Shown: positions 20,875 to 46,272 of the stretch, in pieces
How the letters are laid out: each line of letters opens with the position of its first letter
How positions within the stretch are numbered: position 1 is the stretch's first letter
Source: Guillardia theta CCMP2712
Lineage: Eukaryota > Protista > Cryptophyta
Assembly (NCBI RefSeq): GCF_000315625.1
Contig: NW_005434656.1
Span: 417,741-481,740, forward strand
DNA length: 64,000 bases
Direction of reading: 5' to 3'
Notes under the pieces: model-generated
What the model was told of the DNA's origin: nothing
Database searches by the model: none
The model's input: only the letters and a program-made list of their open reading frames with translations
Program-made: the position numbers and the translations under genes

Positions 20875-22062
20875 ATGCCTGTGTCAACGATTTCGCACAG
20901 ACTTGAGCTGTCAATCCTATGCTGTTGTCTTGTCCTGGTTCACTTTGTGATGGACACGGACGTCATGAGTGCTTCATTGTACAAGGTCGTGATCGTAAGT
21001 GTCACCAAGGTCTTGGGCGCTGAGCAAGGAATCAGACTCGCGATATTCACCATGAAAAACCTGGACAACAATGTAGAGATGCAGAAGATGGGACTTTCAT
21101 ACCTTGATCCTTTTTGCCAAGATCCTGTTTATCAACCCAAAGTTGCAGAATACGGAGGGATACCTGTGGTGGTACATACGATGGAGTTGCACAAGGAGAA
21201 TGCGGATATACAAGAAAGCGGATGCCAAACGCTTCAGGGTTTGTCTGCACATCATGACAACCAGGTCAAGATCGCCGAGCTAGGAGGAATCCGTTTGGTT
21301 GTCGGTGCGATGGAGAAGTATGAGGACAACCGCAGAATACAAGCGTATGCATGTTTGACGATATCATGCCTGGCTACCAACACAGACAACCAGGTCAAGA
21401 TCGCCGAGCTCGGAGGGATCCGGTTGGTGATGAAAGCGATGAGAAAGCATGAAATGGACGAAGGCGTACAGGAGCAAGGATGCCGCGCACTCGAAGCCTT
21501 AGGAAAGAACCCGGACAACCAAGTCAAGATCGCCGAGCTCGGAGGGATCCGGTTGGTGATGAAAGCGATGAACAGACACGAAGCCAACGAAGGCATACAA
21601 GATGCAGGTTGTGAAGCATTGGAGAGTTTGGCCAACAATGCACAGAACTTGTTCAAGATGTCTGACTTCATGAAGGTTGCTTGCAATTTTTGCAAGTGCA
21701 TGCAGAGGAAGGAAGAGAAGAAAAAGAAGGAGGAAGAGCAACGGCGGAAGGAAAAGGAAGAGAAGAGAAAGCAGGAGCGAGCGAGAAACGAGCAGGAGAA
21801 ACGGGAGCGGGAGGAGAGGTGGAAGCGAAGGGAAGAGCAGAAGAGGAACTCTTGGGGAGGCGGCTTCGGGTCCAACGACCCTTACAAGATTCTAGGAGTC
21901 AGACGAGGAACTTCCAAGGCCGAGTGCAAGAGGCAATATCGAAGGCTGGCCCAGCAATACCACCCGGACAAGTGCCTGCACTGCAGCCCCGAGAAACTGG
22001 AGGAAATGGCAGAGACTTTCATTAGGATCCAAGCAGCCTGGGAGCAGATATCTAAAGAGTAG
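20875..22062 (+). CDS. Intronless armadillo-repeat protein with N-terminal hydrophobic segment, charged coiled coil and C-terminal DnaJ domain
   Basis: Four ARM-like repeats (DNQVKIAELGGIRLV..AM..H...EG.QE.GC.AL..L); J domain DPYKILGV...YRRLAQQYHPDK...FIRIQAAWEQI. Confidence 0.88.
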   Translation: MPVSTISHRLELSILCCCLVLVHFVMDTDVMSASLYKVVIVSVTKVLGAEQGIRLAIFTMKNLDNNVEMQKMGLSYLDPFCQDPVYQPKVAEYGGIPVVVHTMELHKENADIQESGCQTLQGLSAHHDNQVKIAELGGIRLVVGAMEKYEDNRRIQAYACLTISCLATNTDNQVKIAELGGIRLVMKAMRKHEMDEGVQEQGCRALEALGKNPDNQVKIAELGGIRLVMKAMNRHEANEGIQDAGCEALESLANNAQNLFKMSDFMKVACNFCKCMQRKEEKKKKEEEQRRKEKEEKRKQERARNEQEKREREERWKRREEQKRNSWGGGFGSNDPYKILGVRRGTSKAECKRQYRRLAQQYHPDKCLHCSPEKLEEMAETFIRIQAAWEQISKE

Positions 22063-22499: not shown

Positions 22500-25400
22500 A
22501 TGAAGCGACGAAGAGAGGAGGAGGGGGAGGAAGAGGAGGAGCAGGAGGAAGTGGTGGAGGTAGAAGGAGAAGATGAGATGCAAGACAGCTTCATCGACCC
22601 TCAGGAGGAGGAGGATGACCTCGCTCATCAGCATCACCTGCTGTCCGCGGTTGTTCCAGGGGGTGACGGTAGGGGTGACGGTAGTGAACAAGACGAGTTG
22701 GACGACAACGAAGCAGGATCTTCAGACCTCCTGCATGATGTGCAACATGAACATGAGCTGCATGATGGGTGGGAGGATGCAGAACATGTTGATCTCGAGA
22801 AAGAGTTGAACGATGGCTCTGACGAGGAAATCGAAGACGTCCGGCAAGGAAAGCAAGTGGGTGGGGATCAAGAGCCGGCAGATGAATGCGAGGACCCAGG
22901 TCATGCTGCTGTGTACGAGGCCCAGTCGCCTACCACACAACATCACGTTAGTTTCGATGTCGACGATTCTGTTGTTTCCAACGCCTGCTCGTCGTCGCAT
23001 GTGCGGATGTTGGAAGAGTCCATCGTGGTTGAGGTGGGGAACCGAAACAGGTACAAGCTGCAGCTAGAAGCCGAGATGGAGAAGAATGCCAAGGCATCAG
23101 CAAGGATCGCATCCTTGCAGACTGAGAACGAGCACCTGAATGTCAGGTGCTCTGAGTACCAGAGGAGCAGCAGCTCCAAGGACCTGCTGCTGAAGAGCCT
23201 TGAGGCAGAGATCTCAGAGCTGAGGAGGCAGCTCTTGGACAAGTCGAGTGAAGCTGAAGCTCAGCACAAGGAGCATATTAGCAAGATGCAGTCAGAGCTA
23301 TTCGACAAGTCCAAGGAGGTCATGACCTTGCAGAAGGAGCTGGAGCTGTCTCGCATGTCCGAGAGTGATCTGAAGCAGACCGTCACTCGGCTGGAGGAAC
23401 GGATCAGCAACCTGACACAGAGCCTGCAGCAGCCAGCGGAGCATGGTCTAGTGGCCCCGGAGAGTGAAGAGTCTTTGAGAAGCCAAGTCAAGGAGGGAGA
23501 GATACTGGCCAAGCACCTCCGACTGCAGGTGTCTCAGCTGAAGGCCGACGCTGCCAAGGCTGTGGAGTTCCAGAAGGAGCTGATAAGGTGAAGGAGGAGG
23601 AAGGCGTGCAGCTGTGTTTGACCTTCCTGTCTTAGTCTGCGGTCGATCAAGTTCGAGGCCGAGGAGGCGAACTCCAGATGCGCCCTGCTGGAAGCTAAAC
23701 TCAAGGACTCGACTGCCAACGAGTCGCAGCTGATGGTGGAGAAGGAAAGGCTGCAGGATTGGGAGGTCTCATTGACTGGTCGCCTGCTCGGGCTGACAGA
23801 CGTGCAGGTATCGCTCAAGTTGTGCATGCCAGACTGCCGATCCCCTTCCGACGTGGTGAACTGCTTCCGCAACCTGCAGCAGCGGAACCTGCTCTTGGAG
23901 GCAGACGTGGCTTCTCTGCGGGAAAAGTGCAGCAGGTGTGAAGGAGCATGTGAGAGGAGCAGGGGCTGACTGCGTCACAAGCCTTGAGGGAAGCGCCAAG
24001 ACTCTCCGGGACAACAATGTGCAGCTCCAAGGAGAGGTGCAGACGTTGAAGGGAAGGGCGGAACAGCTGGAGACTGAGCTCCATATGGCCAAGGCTGCTG
24101 TATGCTCCCCTCGGGCTTCTCCTGTGGCTGCTAACTCGCTGGATGTCCTGCAGAGGGAGCGAGAGGTCTACTTGGCTTCGATGGACCGCGAGATGCTGGC
24201 ATCGTTCAAGGCGGAGGAGGTGCTCCTTCGAGACCAGAAGGTGTTGGAGCAGCAGAAGACGATCGAGAAGCTGCAAGCTGATGTGAGCGGGACGGCAATG
24301 CTGATGTGGTCCTCTCACCTCGCCCCGCAGATCAAGGCGCACAAGGAGCAGCTCAGGTCGAACGCCTCGCAGCACTCAGCCAGGACGAGCAAGCTGGAGG
24401 CGGAGATCGGAAGCCTCAAAGACGAGCTCAACAACAACTCGGGGGAGCTGAAGCGATGCAGGAACGAGATGGAGAGGTACAAGAGCAACCTCGAGAAATA
24501 CCAGACCAGCCTCGAGAAGTCCGAGGCCCTGCTAGAGTCCAGCAAGGCAGAGCTGGAGCAGCTGAAGAAGGAGAGCGCGGGCGTGAAGGAGGAGGCAAGC
24601 GTCTCTTCCCTCATGCCGCCGTCAGATCTGACCTTCTCCTCCCGTAGCTCCGCGTGGAGAAAGAGAAAGTAGCCAAGTCAGCTGCTCTCCAAGGTAAGGT
24701 CGATGAACTAGAGGGCAAGCACAAGGAGGCGGAGGAGAAGCTGAAGGCCTCGCTGCAGAAGTCGACCACAGGTGCTGCTGTCCACCCATCATGTCCCACC
24801 GCACCGCACGTGTGCGCTGACATCTCCTCCTTTCCTCCTCCAGATATCGACAACTTGAAGAAGAACTTTGCGAAGCTCCGCGCCAAGTTCGAGCAGGCGC
24901 AGGTGGACTAGGCTGCTGATGGTGGTATCGGGAGGCTGACGAGGAGGCTGCCAGGAGGTCGTCCGGCTGGTCCCGCTGCTGTTCGGCTACGTCATCACGG
25001 TCACTCAAGGGAAGAAGGTGGAAGGAAAAGACTACCAGGCGATCATCAAGGTTGTTTGCTGCCCACCTTCATTCTCATCTCTCACTCGCGTTCCTCTGCT
25101 CTCTCCACTCCTCCTCTCCCTCTCCTCCTTTCTCTTCTCCTCTGCCTCCCCTCCTTTCTCTTCCCCTCTCTTCTCTCTTCTCTTCCACTTCCAACTGATC
25201 TCATTCACCTCTCCATATCTTCGTACTTTCCTCCTCTGATCTCCTACCAGGCCATCCCCAAGTTTGCGGAGCAGGACAAGTCTGAATCCTTCGTGCTGAG
25301 AGCGTCAATGCCGGCAGACTCCAGCAAGGACCCAACTCTCTTCCTGCAGAACGCCTGCGAGGTGATCCCTGCTGTTCCTCTTGCCCTCCTCCTCCTCATA

Positions 25401-25831
25401 TCGGGCAGTCGGAGAACGTCAAGAAACACAAGGAAAAGTTCCTAAGCGAGCCCTCCAGTCCCTTGAAAGAAGGTTCTTCCCATCCCCTACCTCCCCCCTC
25501 GCCTCTCCTTCCCCCCCCCTCCTTCCTTCCTATGCCTTCTGCTCCCCCTTCTATCAACATTTCCTATCCTCCCCCCTTCGCACATCTTTACTTCCCTCCT
25601 CCTCCTGCTCTCGTTGACCATCGCTCCCCAGCCGGGGTCTCTGCGTTCCTGTCTGCCATCTTGGTCGATCGCTTCGAGAACTTGCAAAAGGTTTTGATTC
25701 CTTCTCATCCTTCCCCTCCGTCAGCCTCTCCCCCCGTCCTCTCCTTCTCATCGTCTCTGTTGCTTCTAACCGCCAAGTTGTAGGAGCACGCGAGCAAACC
25801 CAAAGCTGGGGAAGCTGCCGGACAAAGTTGA
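22500..25831 (+). CDS. MAD1: Mitotic spindle checkpoint protein MAD1-like, multi-exon
   Basis: Long coiled coil; EKERLQDWE...SPSDVVNCFRNLQQRNLLL and C-terminal LRAKF...LLFGYVITV...KFAEQDKSESFVL...VSAFLSAILVDRF resemble MAD1 central and C-terminal motifs. Confidence 0.72.
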
Positions 25832-26059
25832 AGTCAGTGCTTGTTTCAAGGCTTTCCGAAGTTCTGTTGGCAATAAACACTGAGCACAACAACTGACTCA
25901 GTCGACCATCTCACCTCAGCCTAACTCCGGGTATCATGGCATAATGGCCTGGCCCAGTAGTATGCCCGCCCCCCCCCGCCGCCGGCATGCAGTGCCGTAC
26001 GGTCACTGTCAGTCAACATAATTTGTACCCTCCGCAGGGGGGAATTGAAATAGGCTATT

Positions 26060-26310
26060 AATCGGCCAATAATTTACTAGCACAATACCAGCACAATTGA
26101 AATCAAATCTAAACTTAGTGGCACAATACAGGCACAGTACCGGCACAATACTAGCACAATTGAAATCAGCCAGTAATTTACTGGCACAATTGACACACAA
26201 ACAGCATCAAACCTGGAGTAGATGGCACACTAGTTGAACAATACTGAGCACAATTGAAATCGGCTAGAAATTTACCAGGAAGTTTACAGTGAATTACTGG
26301 CACATTTCGC
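26060..26310 (+). repeat. AT-rich array of ~10 GCACA(A/G/C/T)T-core repeats, three extended as GCACAATTGAAATC
   Basis: Cores near 26080, 26091, 26121, 26132, 26143, 26154, 26184, 26225, 26248, 26300; several spaced 11 bp apart. Confidence 0.8.
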
Positions 26311-26369
26311 CTTCCCCTCTCTGACCTTTATAATGCCTTCTGCTCTCCCTCCTTACCAGAAACTGGGTA

Positions 26370-28583
26370 ATGTCCACGCAAAGGGTGAACGTAACTCGGT
26401 TGAAGAAACTGGCTGCGCAGTTCCTCGATCAAGTCTTCGATGACCAGTTTGCCAAGCTGTCCTACAACGATATGAGATTGAAGATTGGCCAAAGTGAGTT
26501 GGCTTGGTCTTGGCACACCTTGCTCCCCTGCCTGGTGCGAACTGTTCGCGACATCCGAACCAAATTTGGGCTCCCATTTCCAGGTGATTACACACTCTTC
26601 GAGACTTACAACTTTGCCACGGACAGCATGCGAGTGTTTCTGATACACTACCACCCCGACAAGACATTTGGATCGAACTCCGTGCTCGAACGCGATGTCA
26701 TAGAGAAGGCCAACATTGTCTTTTCCAAGTTGCAGGATCTACACCTTCAGACAAAGCAAAGATTCAATATGCGAAACCACTACAATTGGTGGGATATTCT
26801 ACAGTCTCTACTGGATTTCAATGCGACATCCTGTCTGCACAGGACCAAGACCGACGAGTCTCGCTCCGAAAGGCTAAAACGTCAACTGGAGTACGAATAT
26901 CAGATTGACGCACTGTGGCCACACAACAATCCAGACTTGAAGATGAGGAAGATGGATCTTGACAAGAAACGTTTGTTCACACGGAAGGAATACATGTTTC
27001 TCAATGGATACAGAAAAATGCAGATTTTGGACTTAGAACTGAAGAGCAAAGGATTCAACGTGGAACAAGACGAGGATAAGCTTCCAGTCGAGTCAGAACG
27101 CAACACATCCGCTTGCCTGCTTCCTGAGGAATATTGCCCGCTTGCCACCAAGGACCAGCTGGCCTACGAGGTGTTTTTGAATCCAAAAGTTGTGTACAAG
27201 GGATGGAACATGAACGAGCCCTGTCACCTCTTCCGTAAGATCCGCGACATGAAGGATACACTCTGCATTGACAACATTCGGAAGGAATGGAATTACAACC
27301 CCAGAACACTCGAAGAGACCAAGGGTGTGATCCGTTACATTCTGGACATTATTCCTGCATTCTTGTTCAAGGATGAACAAAATCCAGTGATTACAATGTT
27401 TGATACCAAGGATGATGCGAAGTTCGAGGATCAGCTGCAAAACGTCGAAACCATGATTCTGTTTGTTCGTGAGACCATGGCCCTGCTTATCAAGTGCGCT
27501 AGCCTTCATCAAGGGCCTCAGACCACTTGTACCCACCAGAGATGTGGCCGCAAGAAGCTTTCCAACATACGGCAATCAGATCCGAACGAGAACAACTGGG
27601 ACAGAGTGAAACTCCAAGAGATCCAAGAGAAGTGGAACGTCATGAAGAATAGGTTGAGAACCATGACCTCTGACAATGGATTGGAAGTGATTGCCGATGC
27701 CCTCGCATTGGTGCTGGCCTCAGTGCATGACTGCAACGAGATCAAGTTGAACTTCAAGATGTTGGACATCAACATGAAGATCTTTCACGGAACCCCAATA
27801 TTCATCCGCCATCATTTCCACAAGGACCTTCATCAGGACCCATCTCGTGTGGACAGTATGTGTGACTGGATCAAAATCTCTCTTGACTCCCTGCTTGCTG
27901 GCGATGCAACTATCAAGGACAGGCTATTATCTGGTGAGTGCAAGGCGTATGATCTGGTCATGAATGCTTGCATGATGCAATTGATCACCCGCGAGGATTA
28001 TCCTACCAGTACGAATCTACCCTTCATGATGCGATACGACAAGATGCGACTTCGCCAATTCAGGTTGGAGTTTCGAATGGACTGTCTGAGTGTCTCTATG
28101 TTGGGCATTGCTTTGCAACGACTGAGCCGGATCCCCGTTGATTCATCGGATATTCAAGGCAAGCTTATCCAATTCTTCAACAACTACCGTCTGTCCATAG
28201 AGGCTGATACGGCCTTTCCCGAATTCGAGACCAAACAGTACTCCTACGACTTTGTCATTGATTCCCTTCGACGTCACCTCATAGAAGAGGACAAGAACTG
28301 GCTCGCCACCGCGCTATCAGTCGAAGACCCCATCGCTGAACTTTTTGCCTTTCCTGACATACTATGGAATGCCTCCATCATCTCGGTAACCAAGAAATGG
28401 ATGGACATTCTAGCAATGGAACAGCCTCCGGCTTTTGATATCAACTCGGTGCAACGCTTTCCGGTCAAGCAGGTTTACCGTCGCATTTTTCTCAACGCGT
28501 GCTTGTTCCGCAAACTTCTCCATGCCAAGAAGAAACTCTTTAACGGTCCTTTCCGCCGGACCCTTGTTCGGAAGGTTTTGTAG
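26370..28583 (+). CDS. Intronless 737-aa protein: J-domain-like HPD segment plus T-complex-11 (TCP11)-like region; possibly virus-derived
   Basis: Single uninterrupted ORF, lower GC than neighbours; FLIHYHPDK...EKANIVFSKLQD; DQLAYEVFLNP, IRHHFHKDL...SMCDWIK and LPFMMRYDKMRLRQFR resemble TCP11 blocks. Confidence 0.7.
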   Translation: MSTQRVNVTRLKKLAAQFLDQVFDDQFAKLSYNDMRLKIGQSELAWSWHTLLPCLVRTVRDIRTKFGLPFPGDYTLFETYNFATDSMRVFLIHYHPDKTFGSNSVLERDVIEKANIVFSKLQDLHLQTKQRFNMRNHYNWWDILQSLLDFNATSCLHRTKTDESRSERLKRQLEYEYQIDALWPHNNPDLKMRKMDLDKKRLFTRKEYMFLNGYRKMQILDLELKSKGFNVEQDEDKLPVESERNTSACLLPEEYCPLATKDQLAYEVFLNPKVVYKGWNMNEPCHLFRKIRDMKDTLCIDNIRKEWNYNPRTLEETKGVIRYILDIIPAFLFKDEQNPVITMFDTKDDAKFEDQLQNVETMILFVRETMALLIKCASLHQGPQTTCTHQRCGRKKLSNIRQSDPNENNWDRVKLQEIQEKWNVMKNRLRTMTSDNGLEVIADALALVLASVHDCNEIKLNFKMLDINMKIFHGTPIFIRHHFHKDLHQDPSRVDSMCDWIKISLDSLLAGDATIKDRLLSGECKAYDLVMNACMMQLITREDYPTSTNLPFMMRYDKMRLRQFRLEFRMDCLSVSMLGIALQRLSRIPVDSSDIQGKLIQFFNNYRLSIEADTAFPEFETKQYSYDFVIDSLRRHLIEEDKNWLATALSVEDPIAELFAFPDILWNASIISVTKKWMDILAMEQPPAFDINSVQRFPVKQVYRRIFLNACLFRKLLHAKKKLFNGPFRRTLVRKVL

Positions 28584-28608
28584 ATGTCGTAATTTATCCA
28601 AAGGAAAT

Positions 28609-28627
28609 AATAAACGAGTCGTTTATT
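28609..28627. other. Palindromic hairpin AATAAACG-AGT-CGTTTATT, 25 nt after the stop of the 737-aa ORF
   Basis: Perfect 8-bp stem with 3-nt loop; contains AATAAA. Confidence 0.6.
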
Positions 28628-28682
28628 TCGATATGACAGAATCGTTCACAAGCAATGCCAGACAGAGACTGACCGATTGATT

Positions 28683-28839
28683 GGGACCACGAAGGGTACG
28701 GGGGGAGACTGTCTCATCTTAGAGGAGGCGGCATACTGCGAATGCGTGACCCCGCAACGGGAAGGTCGCTCTTTGCGACTAAAAGTGCATTGAGCTGGCC
28801 TGCCCTGCCTGCAAGGCCGACGGGAAGGCACACGAGCGC
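28683..28839 (+). pseudogene. Degenerate fragment resembling a viral DNA-packaging terminase ATPase (herpes/mirusvirus type)
   Basis: Three adjacent frames read GTTKGTGGDCLILEEAAYCE / MRDPATGRSLFATK / CIELACPACKADGKAHER. Confidence 0.55.
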
Positions 28840-28934
28840 CGGGTGTTTGAGGCAGCATGGCTTCACGCGCGTATGGTTCTACAGTATGATGAACTAGCCT
28901 AGCAGGTGTGAACAAAAAGTTTCAGTCGGAGCTT

Positions 28935-29007
28935 CGCCCGATGTGGGGCTCGAACCCACGACCACAAGGTTAAGAGCCTTGCGCTCTGCCGACTGAGCTA
29001 ACCGGGC
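28935..29007 (-). tRNA. tRNA-Lys (anticodon CTT)
   Basis: Reverse complement GCCCGGTTAGCTCAGTCGGCAGAGCGCAAGGCTCTTAACCTTGTGGTCGTGGGTTCGAGCCCCACATCGGGCG: 73-nt cloverleaf with A/B boxes; T5 Pol III terminator at 28914-28918. Confidence 0.97.
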
Positions 29008-29163
29008 ACGTGAAGTTGAGGTAAATGACTATTTTTATAGTCTATTGTTGGATTCAATTGTTGTGGTATGAGGGGCGCCATCGGTTTATATTGCAGGACT
29101 AGGCGGGTTTTTGACAATTTTATAGTTTATTGCAAGTTTAATGGACATGATTGAGTTTGAAAA

Positions 29164-31859
29164 ATGCAAGGAGCGAGGGGGGCAGGAGAGAGGGGAAGGA
29201 AGAGGAAGAAGAGAAGGATCAGGGAGCAGGAGGGGGATAGAAGAGGAATTCCAAGGAAGGGAAAGGTCATAGGATGGATCTTGCCAACTGTAACTGTCTC
29301 TGCAGAGCATGAATCTTGCAGGAAAGCTTCAACAAGCCCTGAGGAACTCAGCGGCCAAGAAGTCAAGGCTTGAGTCCTTGCGCAAAGAGCTGTAACGCGG
29401 CTCATCTCCTCTACCCGCTTCTCTGACTTGATCCTGAAGGCTTGCAATAGAAGCAAAGTCCAGCAAGAATGCAAGCTCTAGAACAACTGGCTCGGAAGGC
29501 GGCATTCCGCATATGCAAGCTCATGGAAACAAACTTGAGATCAGAGCTGAGGAGGAGCAGGTGGGAGCAGGTGAACTGTCAGGTGGGGATGAGGCAACAG
29601 ACGAGGCTGCTCCCCCGCATCTTCCACTGACATCTCAAGGCACTCGATTCTCGCCCTGTGCCGAATGTGAAATGAATCAGCAGGTGAGGAAATCCCACGG
29701 ACAAAGGAGGAGGAGGAGACTGTTCTAGGAGAGTACTCCCTCTACGCGGCTCCTTCCCATCAGCAGAGTTGCGATGCTGCCAGCAGCCTCAGGGAGCAGC
29801 CATGGCAGGAGGCGGCTGAGCGGCTCCATGAGTACGAGGAGATCATCGTGGACTTGCATGCTCGCATGCAGAACATGCTGCAAGTGGTGAGATGGGGGAG
29901 GGGGCAGAGGGAATCTCGTGATGCGATGCCTGTCAGGTACATACGGTAGCGCAAGAGTACCAGCAGGAGAGAGCGACTCTCGAGAAGGAGCTGAGCGAGC
30001 AGAGAGCGCGGCAGGAGGAGGAGGTTGGTCGTGCGTTGAGAAGCTTGCTTGACTTGATTGCTCTCTTCCCTGTTTGTGCTCTTCATCTCGCCCTTGTGAG
30101 TTTGCGATCAGCTCAGAGCTGCGCGAGAAGAATTGAGAGGCGCGCTGAGCAAAGTCGACGAGATGAAGTTGAAACAGCAAAATCGCGCGGTAAGGACGTG
30201 AGAAATGGTCTACCCACTGACAACTTGATTGCAGCACGCGGAAGAACAACTGCGAGTCGAACTTGCGGCAAGTCGGAGGGAGGAACAAGAAGTCTGTCGC
30301 TCTTGATGTCTGCAGGGCCTCCTGACATGTTGCACTCCAGGCGAGGGAGCTGTTGGATTACTTCAGAGACAAGTTCCTTGAGATGGGGGCAGGGAGTGCG
30401 AGAGCAGCTGCATCCTCTGAGTCGAGCTGCCTCCGACAAACTTCGTGTCGTTCGAGGAGCAAGCAGACTTCGCAGGAGGTCGAGCAACCCGTGCAGCTGT
30501 TTGCTCGCAGCCTTCACCCGATTGCTCACAGGATGTCCGAGCTCGAGAGCTGGAGGTGTTTGACCGATTGGTTGACCGTTGACAATTGAGAAGAGGCCGC
30601 AGGTTGCGATGCGAGGAGCTCGGCAAGGAGAACAGAACTCTGACGCGAAGACTTGTTTGCCTCGAGGAGGAGAACATGGACCTGAAGCATGTGAGAGCTC
30701 GCGTGAAGAGTGGGGATGGGAGCAGAAGAGGGAAGAGGAAGAGAGAAGGGAGGGGAGGGGAGGGGAGGGGAGGGGGGCAGAGTTTGGTTGTCTCGTCACG
30801 AAGTGGAGGAGAGCAAGTGATCTGAAGAGGTTCAGGCGAGGGCGACGATGAAGAAAGACTCGAGCAAGGTGCTGCGAACGAGTGAGGTCTGTCTGCAGGG
30901 GATGCAGGTGAGAGAGGGAGGAGGGAGGGAGTTGACCGACGCGACTCGCCAGCGGAAGCTTGCAGCTCAACGCCAGCAGCTGCGAGCGTATGAGATAAGA
31001 AGAAGAGAAGACGACAAGTACATCAGCAGACTAGAGAAGAAGGTGATAGAGGTAAGCAAAGGCCCCCCTGCTCTCCTTCTCTTCCTTCTGCTCTCTCTTC
31101 GCTTGATCGTTGAGCTAGTTGTACCATGCGGTTTCTTGGCCTTTCAGTATGATGGAAGCACCCGGAGACGAGCGTCCGCCAGATTTTCCCTCATCCCTCT
31201 CTCCTCGTCCTCTTCCTCCTCATACACAACAAGAAGATCATCCTGCTGACCTTCAAGAACCAACCGAACTCTCTCCTCCTCACCGCGAGCAGGCGCCTCA
31301 GCCGCACGACCAGCCGGAGCACCCGAAGGAGAGCAGCGGGCAGACGCCCAACGATGGCTGCAGCTTAGACGCCCTCACCGAGGAGGGGAGCAGCGAGAAG
31401 GGAGGGTCGACGGACCACTCCAGCTCTGCTCCTCCTCCCTCACGACCAGACCTGCGCGACGACTTGGTGCTGTCCTCTGACGGTCGAGGAGGAAGCGAGC
31501 GAGGGACAGGAGAAGTCGAGGACGAGACAGCGAGGGAACAAGAGGGACTAGACGGCGAGGAAGGAAGCGAGGAAACTGATGGAGGAGGAGGAGAGGAGGA
31601 GGGGAAGGGGGGAAAGACGGTCAAGGGAGAAGCATCTGACGGAGAGGAGGGAGGAGGAGATACTTCGAGCTCGTTCGAGGTCGAGCTCCAGGCAAGGAGG
31701 AGCAGAGGGAAGAGGGGAGAGGAGAGCAGCATCGCCCTGCCGCTGTACCCACAGGATCTGATGGTGATGCAGTTGCTGTCGCATCTTTCTTGTCTTGACA
31801 CGTCGCAGAGGATGACCCGGAAGATGAGGAGGAAACTCTTCGAGGAACATTTCAAGTGA
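29164..31859 (+). CDS. Hypothetical multi-exon coiled-coil protein with acidic C-terminus
   Basis: Successive E/K/R/Q-rich exons separated by short GT-AG introns; boundaries approximate. Confidence 0.5.
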
Positions 31860-32819
31860 AGGAGCTCTGAGATGCTCTTGTTTCATGTTTGTAAAGTCCT
31901 ATGTTGAACTTACCCTTCACCCTCCCTCCCTCCTCTCCCTCCCTCCCTCCCTCCCTCCTTTCCCGTTGTCTAAACAGCTTCGCCAGCTCTTGCGTCCCTT
32001 CTTTTATCTACATTCAATTCGATCCACCCTCCCTCACGCACTTGACCCCCTCCCGTCAGCTGTAGGGAGCTGGCGCGTTCATCCATAGGGGCAGCCGCTC
32101 CTGCAATGCTTGTAAGGCATCCCCCCCGCCTAGCAGGAGGAGGAGGGACCAGCTCTCGACCCTTGAGTGCGAGGGATCGCGGAGAGTTGAGGAGGAGGTC
32201 GACGTGAGACAGGCTGCATGCTGTCAGCTCCTGCCCTCCTCCTCCACACCACCACAACTACCTCCTGCTTCCCTCCCTTCCCCCCCTTCCCCTTCCCTGC
32301 ATTTTCCTTCTCCTTCTCCTCCTCCTATTCTCCCCTCACGAGTGTTACCGCGATGTGGAGGCAATCATCTTCGACTTTACCGTTAGCGTCTCCGCGTATT
32401 TCCTGCCCGAACTTTGAGCGATGAGAAGGGGGAAGAGGAGCAGGAGCAGAACAAGGGTGGAGGACAAGGGTGGGAGCATGAGCATGAGCATAAGGAGGAG
32501 CAGGACGAGGAGCAGGACAAGTAGCAGGGGGAGGAGGAGCAGGACAAGGACAAGAGTGGGGGTGAAGCGGGGAGAGCAGGAGGAGGAGGAGTCGCTACCG
32601 GAAAGCAAGGTTCTCTCGCTTCTGCCTGGGACTTGTCAACGTCGAGAGCTTCTGCGAGTCAAGTCTGACAAGAATCTCCAGCAGTCAGCTGCTGCTGCCA
32701 CACCTTCTCTTCTTCTCTTCTCCTCTCCTCCCGCAGCGCGTCCACTGTCACCCGCGTGAGCGAGCAAGCGGCCGGAGGAAGGCAGTCACCTATCTCTGCT
32801 GTGGTCTTGCGGGGCTTCT

Positions 32820-44582: not shown

Positions 44583-46272
44583 TTACACGTATTCTTTTTG
44601 AGTTTCTGCTGACGCACTTTCATAAACCTGCAAGTTTGGAATTCATCAGTACCGATCAGAAGAAGAGGAAGCCATGACTCACATCCATCTGAATGATCAT
44701 GAAAGAGAAGAAGCACTTGGAAGTAACATCAAGCAATGCATAGAGGATTGATTCTGCGCTAACTCCCAATCCGCCAGTCCCCACACTCAACAACCATACG
44801 AATGGATAAACTGACCATGAAACCACAGTGAGCAAAGACACTTTGCCATACCTGTCAAGTAGTGAGTGAGAAGCATATAAGGAGCAGTAAAATTACAGTT
44901 CGATTCTATCCATGTCATATTTGTCTGCAAGGGTCGTTACTTCAACTTCTCCAAAATCAATCAAATTACCAAGAACACACTGACGGAAGATTCTTACAAG
45001 CGCAATGACAACGGGAATGTAGACAACAAGCCCGATGACAAACCAAAGCCATTTGACAGTGGGCACGAGTGCAACAGAACCCATGTAACCAGCAAAAATC
45101 ATTCCCACTGTTCCAAAACATGTCAGATATATTCTTCTTGAGAAAAGAAACAAAAAATATGCGAATGTGCCCAAGAAATTAAGAAAAGTGATTAGTGTAT
45201 GCTTGCATAACACACTCTCTAACTTCATCTTCACGCAGGTCACATCAGTCAAATGGTTCACATGAACATCCGAGAGCAACCTCACACTAAGTGAGGCAGC
45301 AAGAGACTTACTGTCCGCGCCCATGATGGCCGCGATCATCCATTGCTCCTCGCCAGCCAGCAGCCCAATGTTCAAGATCATCAGAGGTGTTGTGATGAAC
45401 CAGTCGATATATCTGAAGACTGTTAGGGGAAGCTCTTTCCTCAACCTCTCCGTTCCACCTGACGTAGAACATCTGACGACATCCCATGATAGTCTCCCAT
45501 CCCATTCCGCTGATCATCGCAAAATAGGAGAAGGACGCCACTCCGCATACAAATGCGTTTCTACACAGCTACTCAGCACTCCGTTGTGAGAAAGAGGGTC
45601 AGTAATACATGTAATAGAACTTGCGGACGACAGGATCCGCATTGACAGCCTTGAATGCCATGAAGAGGGCCGTAAAGAGGAGTGCAATCCATGCAAGCAC
45701 ATCAAAGATGGCTCCTGCAGCGCCGTATCAGAGGATTGAACTCAACCAGAGCGGACGGAAAGGGCAAGACAGGTGACAAGACCATCATGGGGATTTCATA
45801 GATCAATGGCAATCACATGTCAAAGAGATGTTATTGACCATCAAGCTGGATACGAAAGTTCTTCACTATGATGTCTCCCATCAAAGTATAACATCCCAAT
45901 GGCACACAGGGGTCGTTCACCACCCAATCACAGCGGTAGAAAGGAAATCTTTCTCGTGGACAACACATGGAATTCACAACGATGGGATGGTACACTGGTT
46001 CTGATTCCATATCATCACACGTGATCTCCTTCAACGACTCCCCTAACTTGTTATCAACAATCACGTCCTCTCCCTCGTCTCCCTCTAATTGCGTGTGCCT
46101 CCTCATACCCCCCTCTCGCCCTCTCCCACAGGATCGAGGAAGGAGCTGTGCATCAGCAGGGAGCAGGAGCAGGGAAAGAGGAGAGGAAGAGCTTACCGGA
46201 GGCTCCTATCTCCTGGATCGCCAGGCAGTCTGCAGGCAGCAGCCTCGACGCCTCCATCCCCTCCTCGACCAT
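44583..46272 (-). CDS. Microbial (type-1) rhodopsin with DTN motif; 8 exons, first exon 46197-46272
   Basis: Spliced protein MVEEGMEAS...GAIFDVLAW...RYIDWFITTPLMILNIG (helix C)...WSVYPFVW (helix F)...LDVTSK (helix G, retinal-binding Lys)...QKEYV*. Confidence 0.95.

What the first reader, a model, noticed from the sequence alone, without database searches (positions are those of the whole stretch)
25990..28930. Foreign-looking ~3 kb island at the 3' end of a tRNA-Lys gene: candidate endogenous viral element
Seen: between MAD1 and tRNA-Lys the sequence loses host hallmarks (no introns over 2.2 kb, no microsatellites, lower GC). It consists of a repeat array, a 737-aa ORF, a hairpin and a terminase-like relic, ending close to the tRNA's Pol III terminator. 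Inference: an endogenised DNA-virus segment whose core-gene remnant has decayed while one accessory gene stayed open, possibly domesticated. I found no target-site duplication or terminal repeats.
Basis: partly seen in the sequence, partly recalled or inferred. Interest (0 to 1): 0.8.

Follow-up and report, generated by a model that had tools for sequence, protein, structure and literature searches.

The report
Mirusvirus scrap carrying a transcribed gene
In the alga Guillardia theta, a 3-kb stretch holds a broken 157-base piece of a DNA-packaging (terminase) gene, likely from a mirusvirus, beside an intact, weakly transcribed Tcp11-family gene that likely came from the same virus; it is likely leftover viral DNA of a kind already reported in this alga, and nothing found shows that the host uses the gene or that the neighbouring tRNA was a target.

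Summary
The window is Guillardia theta. The island is real, and DNA contigs of two runs join it to the host gene on its left and to tRNA-Lys.

The relic (28680-28836) is the start of a terminase exon: 44 of 51 residues match a G. theta paralogue. All 80 fetched environmental relatives begin at a splice acceptor at this same codon, as in the trans-spliced terminases of mirusviruses (PMC12768974). Here the acceptor is gone, about 112 bp are deleted, the frame is shifted and the exon is cut off.

The 737-aa ORF is a divergent Tcp11-family protein. One of the 80 viral loci also carries Tcp11. The ORF is transcribed unspliced at low level, and the annotated fusion to the next host gene is unsupported.

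Best reading: captured mirusvirus DNA. Viral origin of the ORF is inferred. Domestication and tRNA targeting are not shown, and the hairpin is at chance level. Mirusvirus markers in G. theta are published (PMC10827195). This scan noted the terminase half, and similar virus scraps, elsewhere in this genome.

The parts
25782..25887 (+). Last exon and 3' end of the upstream host gene (coiled-coil, MAD1-like label unconfirmed); left limit of the island
   Evidence: Spliced RNA contigs end at 25887 and 25880; AATAAA just before; Pfam MAD E 0.1 only
26045..26310 (.). Degenerate repeat array built on GCACAAT and a 17-bp palindrome; a tandem relative of about 64 bp lies elsewhere in the genome; viral or host origin unknown
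   Evidence: second copy seen as loose ends and a go-back joint in runs X1, X2, X7; no array of it in the 80 viral loci
26370..28583 (+). Intronless 737-aa ORF, divergent long-form Tcp11-family all-helical protein, likely mirusvirus-derived, transcribed at low level
   Evidence: family; RNA; Tcp11 on a terminase-bearing viral contig
28609..28627 (+). AATAAA overlapping an 8-bp hairpin; possible 3'-end signal, hairpin not above chance
   Evidence: the few sense reads of X19 stop in the 28520-28720 bin
28669..28679 (+). Remnant of the intron end before the terminase exon: branch-point-like CTGAC only 6 nt from the exon, AG acceptor absent
   Evidence: 80 of 80 relatives have AG here; 57 of 80 have a CTRAY within 50 nt, 55 of those 12 nt or more from the exon
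28680..28836 (+). Broken start of the 3' (Walker B) exon of a mirusvirus-type trans-spliced terminase: three collinear pieces, about 112 bp deleted after 28741, frameshift near 28781, truncated; lies in the ORF's long 3' UTR
   Evidence: covered by RNA contigs to about 28870
28912..29008 (-). Host tRNA-Lys(CTT) 28934-29008 with its 3' trailer and T-run, shared with other tRNA-Lys loci; right limit of the island
   Evidence: records matching from 28912 or 28921 with other flanks

Best explanation
This is a roughly 2.8-kb patch of foreign DNA in a Guillardia theta chromosome, likely captured from a nucleus-replicating mirusvirus: it holds a broken start of a terminase exon and an intact, weakly transcribed Tcp11-family gene that is likely viral too.
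Shown: the parts, their physical link to host DNA, the lesions in the terminase piece, the family of the ORF, and unspliced transcription.
Inferred: (1) The patch entered passively, as filler during repair of a chromosome break, not through an integrase. (2) The big lesions in the terminase piece likely arose at or soon after capture. (3) The Tcp11 gene is read by the host because such viruses already use host transcription and splicing, so it likely came with working signals. (4) The protein, if made, would be a non-catalytic helical scaffold like other Tcp11/SOK1 proteins, which are linked to cAMP/PKA signalling; for the host it is most likely a young passenger.
For: Terminase relic:
- 44 of 51 residues identical to G. 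theta GUITHDRAFT_121626 and to a metagenome protein; 27-42 of 51 for the other 56 rows.
- 8 of 8 relatives hit PHROG 'terminase large subunit', best E 4.2e-6.
- The two best fold hits of a low-confidence model are fish and frog herpesvirus terminases, E 0.007 and 0.012.
- 80 of 80 environmental loci start this exon at an AG acceptor just before Walker B, the arrangement described for trans-spliced mirusvirus terminases (PMC12768974, section 9 and passages).
- Neighbours among 30 ORFs scanned include Snf7 and heliorhodopsin, named there as mirusvirus core functions.
- G. theta carries mirusvirus MCP, triplex 2 and maturation protease (PMC10827195 supplement row).
ORF:
- 9 of 12 non-self hits pass the Pfam Tcp11 cut-off.
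- The only fold hit at E<=0.001 is a Mimiviridae T-complex protein 11.
- Locus L054 has Tcp11, Snf7 and the terminase half within about 10 kb.
- It is intronless over 2.2 kb between genes whose RNA-defined internal exons are 58-204 nt.
- No close orthologue was found.
Integration: contigs of X1 (which may be the window's own source) and X2 run from host DNA to the tRNA.
Expression: unspliced contigs in X6 and X8, with empty intergenic bins, plus a few sense reads in X19.
Against: - Tcp11 is a widespread eukaryotic family (Atlas top clusters 70-97% Eukaryota), and Hanusia has a related protein (P0014).
- The genomic context of the closest relative (P0010, 31%) is unknown.
- Only 1 of 80 viral loci showed Tcp11 (median locus 7 kb). 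That copy has an intron and does not group with the ORF in an 11-row, long-branch tree.
- The ORF's own Pfam score (20.4) is under the cut-off of 27.
- Host ORFs of about 1.1 kb without introns occur in the window, and GC3 is host-like.
- No capsid or portal gene was identified on the viral loci, and PDB sequence searches gave no significant terminase hit.
- The lesions cluster in the relic (p about 0.07 for one small frameshift, about 0.001 for three lesions), which could mean selection on the ORF.
Confidence: 0.62

Rival explanations
1. Domesticated viral gene: same mirusvirus origin, but the host now keeps the Tcp11 gene by selection (for example to tune cAMP/PKA signalling or to compete with the virus's own Tcp11) while the terminase piece decays.
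For: The 2,211-bp frame is open while the adjacent 260 bp carry three lesions. It is transcribed in runs of three studies. The model is confident, mean pLDDT 83.6. A mirusvirus-to-alga transfer was suggested for a Micromonas heliorhodopsin (PMC10132985 passage).
Against: The large lesions can date from capture. In run X7 the island pieces differ by 12 of 1,723 bases (0.7%) but host flanks by 97 of 1,810 (5.4%), and 6 of 6 listed ORF variants are non-synonymous (depth under 5, so possibly errors or two strains). This fits a young or polymorphic insert better than an old fixed gene. Contig depth is 9.5 against 671 and 24 for the flanking genes in X6, a poor measure of expression.
Confidence: 0.17
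2. Two separate events: the ORF is an older host Tcp11 retrocopy or fast-evolving paralogue, and only the 157-bp terminase scrap (perhaps with the repeat) is viral, inserted in its 3' UTR.
For: Tcp11 is a cellular family. GC3 is host-like. No direct viral context was obtained for the nearest relatives (searches found none in viral contigs).
Against: No close cryptophyte orthologue in searches covering 198-1,337 aa or among 1.84 billion representatives. The nearest relatives are long ORFs on short environmental contigs and on G. theta scaffolds of 20 and 32 kb. No ORF copy at the 93-97% identity of the diverged host flanks appears in X7, although holes prove little.
Confidence: 0.16
3. Targeted integrative element using the tRNA-Lys gene as attachment site.
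For: The viral piece ends about 100 bp from the tRNA's 3' end.
Against: No integrase or recombinase ORF, no duplicated tRNA end or target-site duplication. The trailer is intact and shared with other tRNA-Lys loci. Only 1 of 35 viral loci scanned has a tRNA. Cryptophyte polinton-like viruses were not found near tRNAs (PMC12220804 passage).
Confidence: 0.03
4. Trans-splicing decoy: the host transcript carries the virus's terminase 3' exon start and would capture the viral 5' half-mRNA into a dead product.
For: The relic is exactly the exon that follows the trans-splice site, lies in sense in a host-made RNA, and keeps a branch-point-like CTGAC.
Against: The canonical AG is lost, expression is low, and no joint at this site appears in three RNA runs.
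Confidence: 0.02

Closest known systems
Trans-spliced terminase genes of Mirusviricota outside Demutovirales and Soporavirales (Okeanovirales, Styxvirales; PMC12768974)
   Same: The piece starts at a spliceosomal acceptor just before Walker B in 80 of 80 relatives, and a separate nuclease exon follows in many loci.
   Different: Here only 51 codons survive, the acceptor is lost, there is a deletion and a frameshift, and no nuclease part. The order was not assigned.
Mirusvirus sequences in eukaryotic assemblies, clade E03 of cryptophytes including G. theta (PMC10827195)
   Same: Same host species, same virus group, viral genes in the host assembly.
   Different: Those scaffolds carry MCP and many viral genes. 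This is a two-gene scrap inside a 937-kb host scaffold, without MCP, and below the three-hit threshold used for mirusvirus regions in bioRxiv 10.1101/2025.04.19.649669.
Tcp11/SOK1 family (PF05794), including giant-virus members such as Mimiviridae sp. ChoanoV1 A0A5B8IQV5
   Same: Collinear alignment over about 600 residues, all-helical model, best viral fold hit.
   Different: Very divergent (18-31% identity) and long form (737 aa against 327-410 aa for the nucleocytovirus fold hits). The family has no known catalytic function (PMC7124965).
Filler-DNA capture of virus scraps in the same genome
   Same: Cut-off viral gene pieces beside a repeat array, no integrase.
   Different: Here one gene is whole and transcribed.

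Membership tests
Mirusvirus trans-spliced terminase (3' half) | Homology to terminase large subunit around Walker B | tested here: met
   Relatives 8 of 8 hit phrog_2, best E 4.2e-6; relic 44 of 51 identical to two of them. The relic alone has no PHROG or PDB hit.
Mirusvirus trans-spliced terminase (3' half) | Exon begins at a spliceosomal acceptor near Walker B | tested here: met
   80 of 80 relatives; homology of the relic starts at the same codon, but its own AG is lost
Mirusvirus trans-spliced terminase (3' half) | Relatives lie in genomes with mirusvirus hallmark genes (HK97 MCP, portal, triplex) | tested here: inconclusive
   No mirusvirus profiles at hand. Snf7 (L054) and heliorhodopsin (L060) among 30 ORFs scanned; MCP not identified.
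Endogenous mirusvirus genome / giant EVE | Several hallmark genes, three or more viral hits in a region | tested here: not met
   One relic and one accessory gene; the 3,487 ORFs of the 80 loci gave no other hit in the window at E 1e-5
Endogenous viral element (fragment) | Viral sequence physically joined to host chromosome DNA | tested here: met
   Contigs X1 25600-28942 and X2 25687-28950; X1 may be the window's own source
Endogenous viral element (fragment) | Empty site in a related strain | tested here: inconclusive
   No contig joins across the island in X7 or X17; an X7 loose end at 28913 does not match the window
Tcp11 family (PF05794) | Pfam gathering score of 27 bits | tested here: inconclusive
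   ORF 20.4 bits, E 3e-4; nearest relative P0010 30.6 bits; 9 of 12 non-self hits pass
Tcp11 family (PF05794) | Tcp11 helical fold | tested here: met
   Best BFVD hit is a T-complex protein 11, E 9.4e-5, TM 0.44 by target. The model was built on an alignment of Tcp11 relatives, so this is not independent of it.
tRNA-targeted integrative element | Integrase and duplicated tRNA end (att sites) | tested here: not met
Domesticated viral gene | Transcription | tested here: met
Domesticated viral gene | Purifying selection and syntenic orthologues | tested here: inconclusive
   No orthologue found; 6 of 6 low-depth variants non-synonymous; no relative's genome available
Domesticated viral gene | Protein made, with a phenotype | not testable with these tools
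   Needs proteomics or knock-down

The most novel reading that the evidence does not exclude
G. theta has adopted a mirusvirus Tcp11 gene as a working host gene while the neighbouring terminase exon decayed: a base-resolved, culturable case of mirusvirus gene domestication caught early, perhaps still polymorphic between strains.
Probability: 0.17. Interest if true: 0.62.

Novelty: new member of a known kind. Interest (0 to 1): 0.36.

Why it matters
It is a small, well-resolved example of gene flow from a likely nucleus-replicating mirusvirus into a cultured model alga. It ties a virus with a trans-spliced terminase to a cryptophyte host, and it adds Tcp11 to the likely accessory genes of mirusviruses. 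No mention of viral Tcp11 turned up in three paper searches or in the readable supplements of two mirusvirus papers; several large tables could not be read. It also flags a wrong gene model (GUITHDRAFT_104880). It would matter more if the gene proved selected. As it stands, mirusvirus DNA in G. theta and trans-spliced terminases are both published.

Tried and rejected
- No whole genome was held, so paralogous islands and tRNA adjacency could not be tested genome-wide. The metagenome records could not be searched whole.
- Viral contigs gave no relative of the terminase or of Tcp11, and no match to a 26-nt repeat unit. Four single matches to the 17-nt palindrome are about what chance gives, by my estimate.
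- The profile search with alignment A4 returned only the window's own protein. It missed known relatives, so it is weak for distant ones.
- PDB sequence searches with the relic, both exon-2 alignments and the nuclease exon gave nothing significant; Pfam gave nothing for the nuclease exon.
- The terminase model was poor (pLDDT 52.8).
- Fold searches of the ORF in PDB gave only generic helical bundles. The Atlas features for P0001 were dominated by the fused host coiled coil.
- The hairpin as a signal was rejected. Target-site duplication was rejected. The 74% inverted match 26085/29039 is not taken as a terminal repeat, because it would enclose the tRNA.
- No listed holder is on record as RNA; X6 and X8 are judged RNA from their spliced joints.
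- Uncovered stretches in X7 and X17, including the relic, are not used as evidence.
- The public contig names of some loci were not found in the PMC12768974 supplements.
- Two of 13 hits (P0012, a repeat protein; P0016, a YadA-like adhesin) were dropped as spurious.
Full report
HOST AND LAYOUT. The 737-aa ORF (26370-28583) matches residues 1-703 of Guillardia theta GUITHDRAFT_104880 exactly, on a 937-kb contig. That model splices the ORF to the host gene beyond the tRNA. RNA contigs do not support it: X6 runs unspliced from 26685 to 28873, X8 reaches 28866, and the downstream gene has its own contig starting near 29304. The flanking genes are cut into exons of 58-204 nt (11 internal exons from RNA joints). 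tRNA-Lys(CTT) is at 28934-29008 on the minus strand. The island is not an assembly join: a contig of X1 covers 25600-28942 with no difference and one of X2 covers 25687-28950 with one gap (X1 may be the window's own source).

COMPOSITION. GC is 47.5% against 54.7% for the window, but about 5% of equal-sized windows are lower, one of them over a host rhodopsin gene. GC3 of the ORF is inside the host range. Foreignness therefore has to rest on homology.

THE RELIC IS A TERMINASE EXON. One frame of 28617-28787 found 8 proteins among 27 candidates, the best being G. theta GUITHDRAFT_121626. tblastn back to the window shows three collinear pieces in three frames. They match 44 of 51 residues of that paralogue and of P0003, and 27-42 of 51 for the other 56 rows. 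About 112 bp are missing between the first two pieces, a 2-bp shift separates the last two, and similarity stops at 28836; no nuclease part is present. All 8 relatives hit the PHROG terminase large subunit, best E 4.2e-6. A poor model (pLDDT 52.8) has fish and frog herpesvirus terminases as its two best hits at E 0.007 and 0.012, none at 0.001 (that these are alloherpesviruses is recalled). PDB sequence searches were not significant.

IT IS OF THE MIRUSVIRUS TYPE. In 80 of 80 the exon starts at an AG acceptor directly before the codon where the relic's homology begins. The window has no AG there, only a branch-point-like CTGAC 6 nt upstream, which suggests loss of the intron's last bases. [quoted passage not shown] Among 30 neighbouring ORFs scanned, L054 has Snf7 and L060 heliorhodopsin; 21 had no informative Pfam hit or none, and no capsid gene was identified. 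PMC10827195 (section 7, passages, supplement rows) lists MCP, triplex 2 and maturation protease in the G. theta assembly. The assignment to Mirusviricota is thus strong but indirect; the order was not determined.

THE ORF IS A DIVERGENT TCP11. Its own Pfam hit is below cut-off (20.4 of 27 bits). Of 12 non-self hits among 1.84 billion representatives, 9 pass the Tcp11 cut-off, 1 is a 66-aa fragment 46% identical, and 2 are spurious. The closest full-length relative is P0010 (31%, a 2.8-kb contig of unknown origin). Others come from metagenome contigs, from G. theta scaffolds of 20 and 32 kb, and from Hanusia. The model is all-helical (pLDDT 83.6), and its only viral hit at E<=0.001 is a Mimiviridae T-complex protein 11; solved structures give only generic bundles. 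One of the 80 viral loci, L054, has an intron-split Tcp11 about 10 kb from the terminase exon; only 29 of 80 loci reach 10 kb. In an 11-row tree the ORF pairs with P0010 and then with a G. theta lipase-Tcp11 fusion, on long branches flagged as unreliable, away from the L054 copy. No cellular reference set was available, so the tree cannot decide viral against host. Viral origin is inferred from adjacency (97 bp, same strand), lack of introns, lack of orthologues and the L054 precedent. Cellular Tcp11 has no known catalytic function and is linked to cAMP/PKA signalling (PMC7124965 passages).

EXPRESSION. X6 and X8 are only guessed to be RNA, but they skip host introns and leave the bins 25907-26308 and 28922-29122 empty while covering the ORF. 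The recorded RNA run X19 (about 6% read, 71 reads laid) has a handful of sense reads, mostly at 28319-28720. Transcription is real and low; translation is untested.

AGE AND SELECTION. The frame is open while three lesions sit in the next 260 bp (p about 0.001 if independent, 0.07 if only the small frameshift counts). That is compatible with selection, but also with damage at capture. In freshwater run X7, island pieces differ from the window at 12 of 1,723 bases, while host flanks differ at 97 of 1,810. The 6 listed ORF variants are all non-synonymous (10 rows of that table were not shown, and depth is under 5). This hints at a young or strain-variable insert, or at two strains in one sample. 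No contig shows an empty site.

REPEAT, HAIRPIN, tRNA. The array at about 26045-26310 has a 17-bp palindrome in degenerate copies and a tandem relative of about 64 bp elsewhere in the genome. It was not found as an array in the viral loci, so its origin is open. The hairpin is at chance level. The tRNA trailer from 28912 is shared with other tRNA-Lys loci. There is no integrase, att repeat or target-site duplication; 1 of 35 loci scanned has a tRNA; and cryptophyte polinton-like viruses were not found near tRNAs (PMC12220804 passages). Adjacency is most likely incidental, though untested genome-wide.

OTHER PAPERS. PMC10132985 (passages, 11 of 19 supplements searched) suggests a mirusvirus origin for a Micromonas heliorhodopsin. 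bioRxiv 10.1101/2025.04.19.649669 (passages) finds eukaryote-borne mirusvirus regions mainly outside Demutovirales. Other titles were seen only in search listings.

VERDICT. A real endogenous fragment of likely mirusvirus DNA with one intact, transcribed Tcp11-family gene: a new member of a known kind. Domestication stays possible (about 0.17) but is not shown. Interest 0.36.

Noticed in passing
window 26370-28480 + 29300-31860: Public gene model GUITHDRAFT_104880 fuses the ORF to the downstream host gene across the tRNA; RNA contigs show two separate transcripts.
   Followed up: yes
window about 44800-45760, minus strand: Intron-containing microbial rhodopsin gene in a low-GC stretch (Pfam Bac_rhodopsin E 1.8e-12).
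   Followed up: partly
L054 1-1000, 1607-2404, 10004-11858: Mirusvirus-type contig with an intron-split Tcp11 gene, Snf7 and the terminase 3' half in two exons.
   Followed up: partly
proteins P0013 and P0018 (GUITHDRAFT_122141): Lipase class 3 fused in front of Tcp11, in a metagenome contig and on a 32-kb G. theta scaffold.
   Followed up: no
window 26164-26215 (runs X1, X2, X7): A tandem repeat of about 64 bp with a palindromic core, related to the island's array, lies elsewhere in the genome and in a freshwater metagenome.
   Followed up: partly
window 24500-30500 (run X7): A freshwater metagenome holds G. theta-like DNA, with host flanks 3-7% diverged, and a second Tcp11-like piece about 82% identical at 27674-27826.
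   Followed up: partly
L006 17279-20575, minus strand: Viral ORF joining an OTU-like protease, a UCH-like stretch and a PARG macrodomain.
   Followed up: no
window 20875-22062: Long intron-free ORF with armadillo repeats and a C-terminal DnaJ domain, with low GC3.
   Followed up: no
L077 5228-5303: tRNA-Pro gene about 2 kb from the terminase exon in one viral locus.
   Followed up: no
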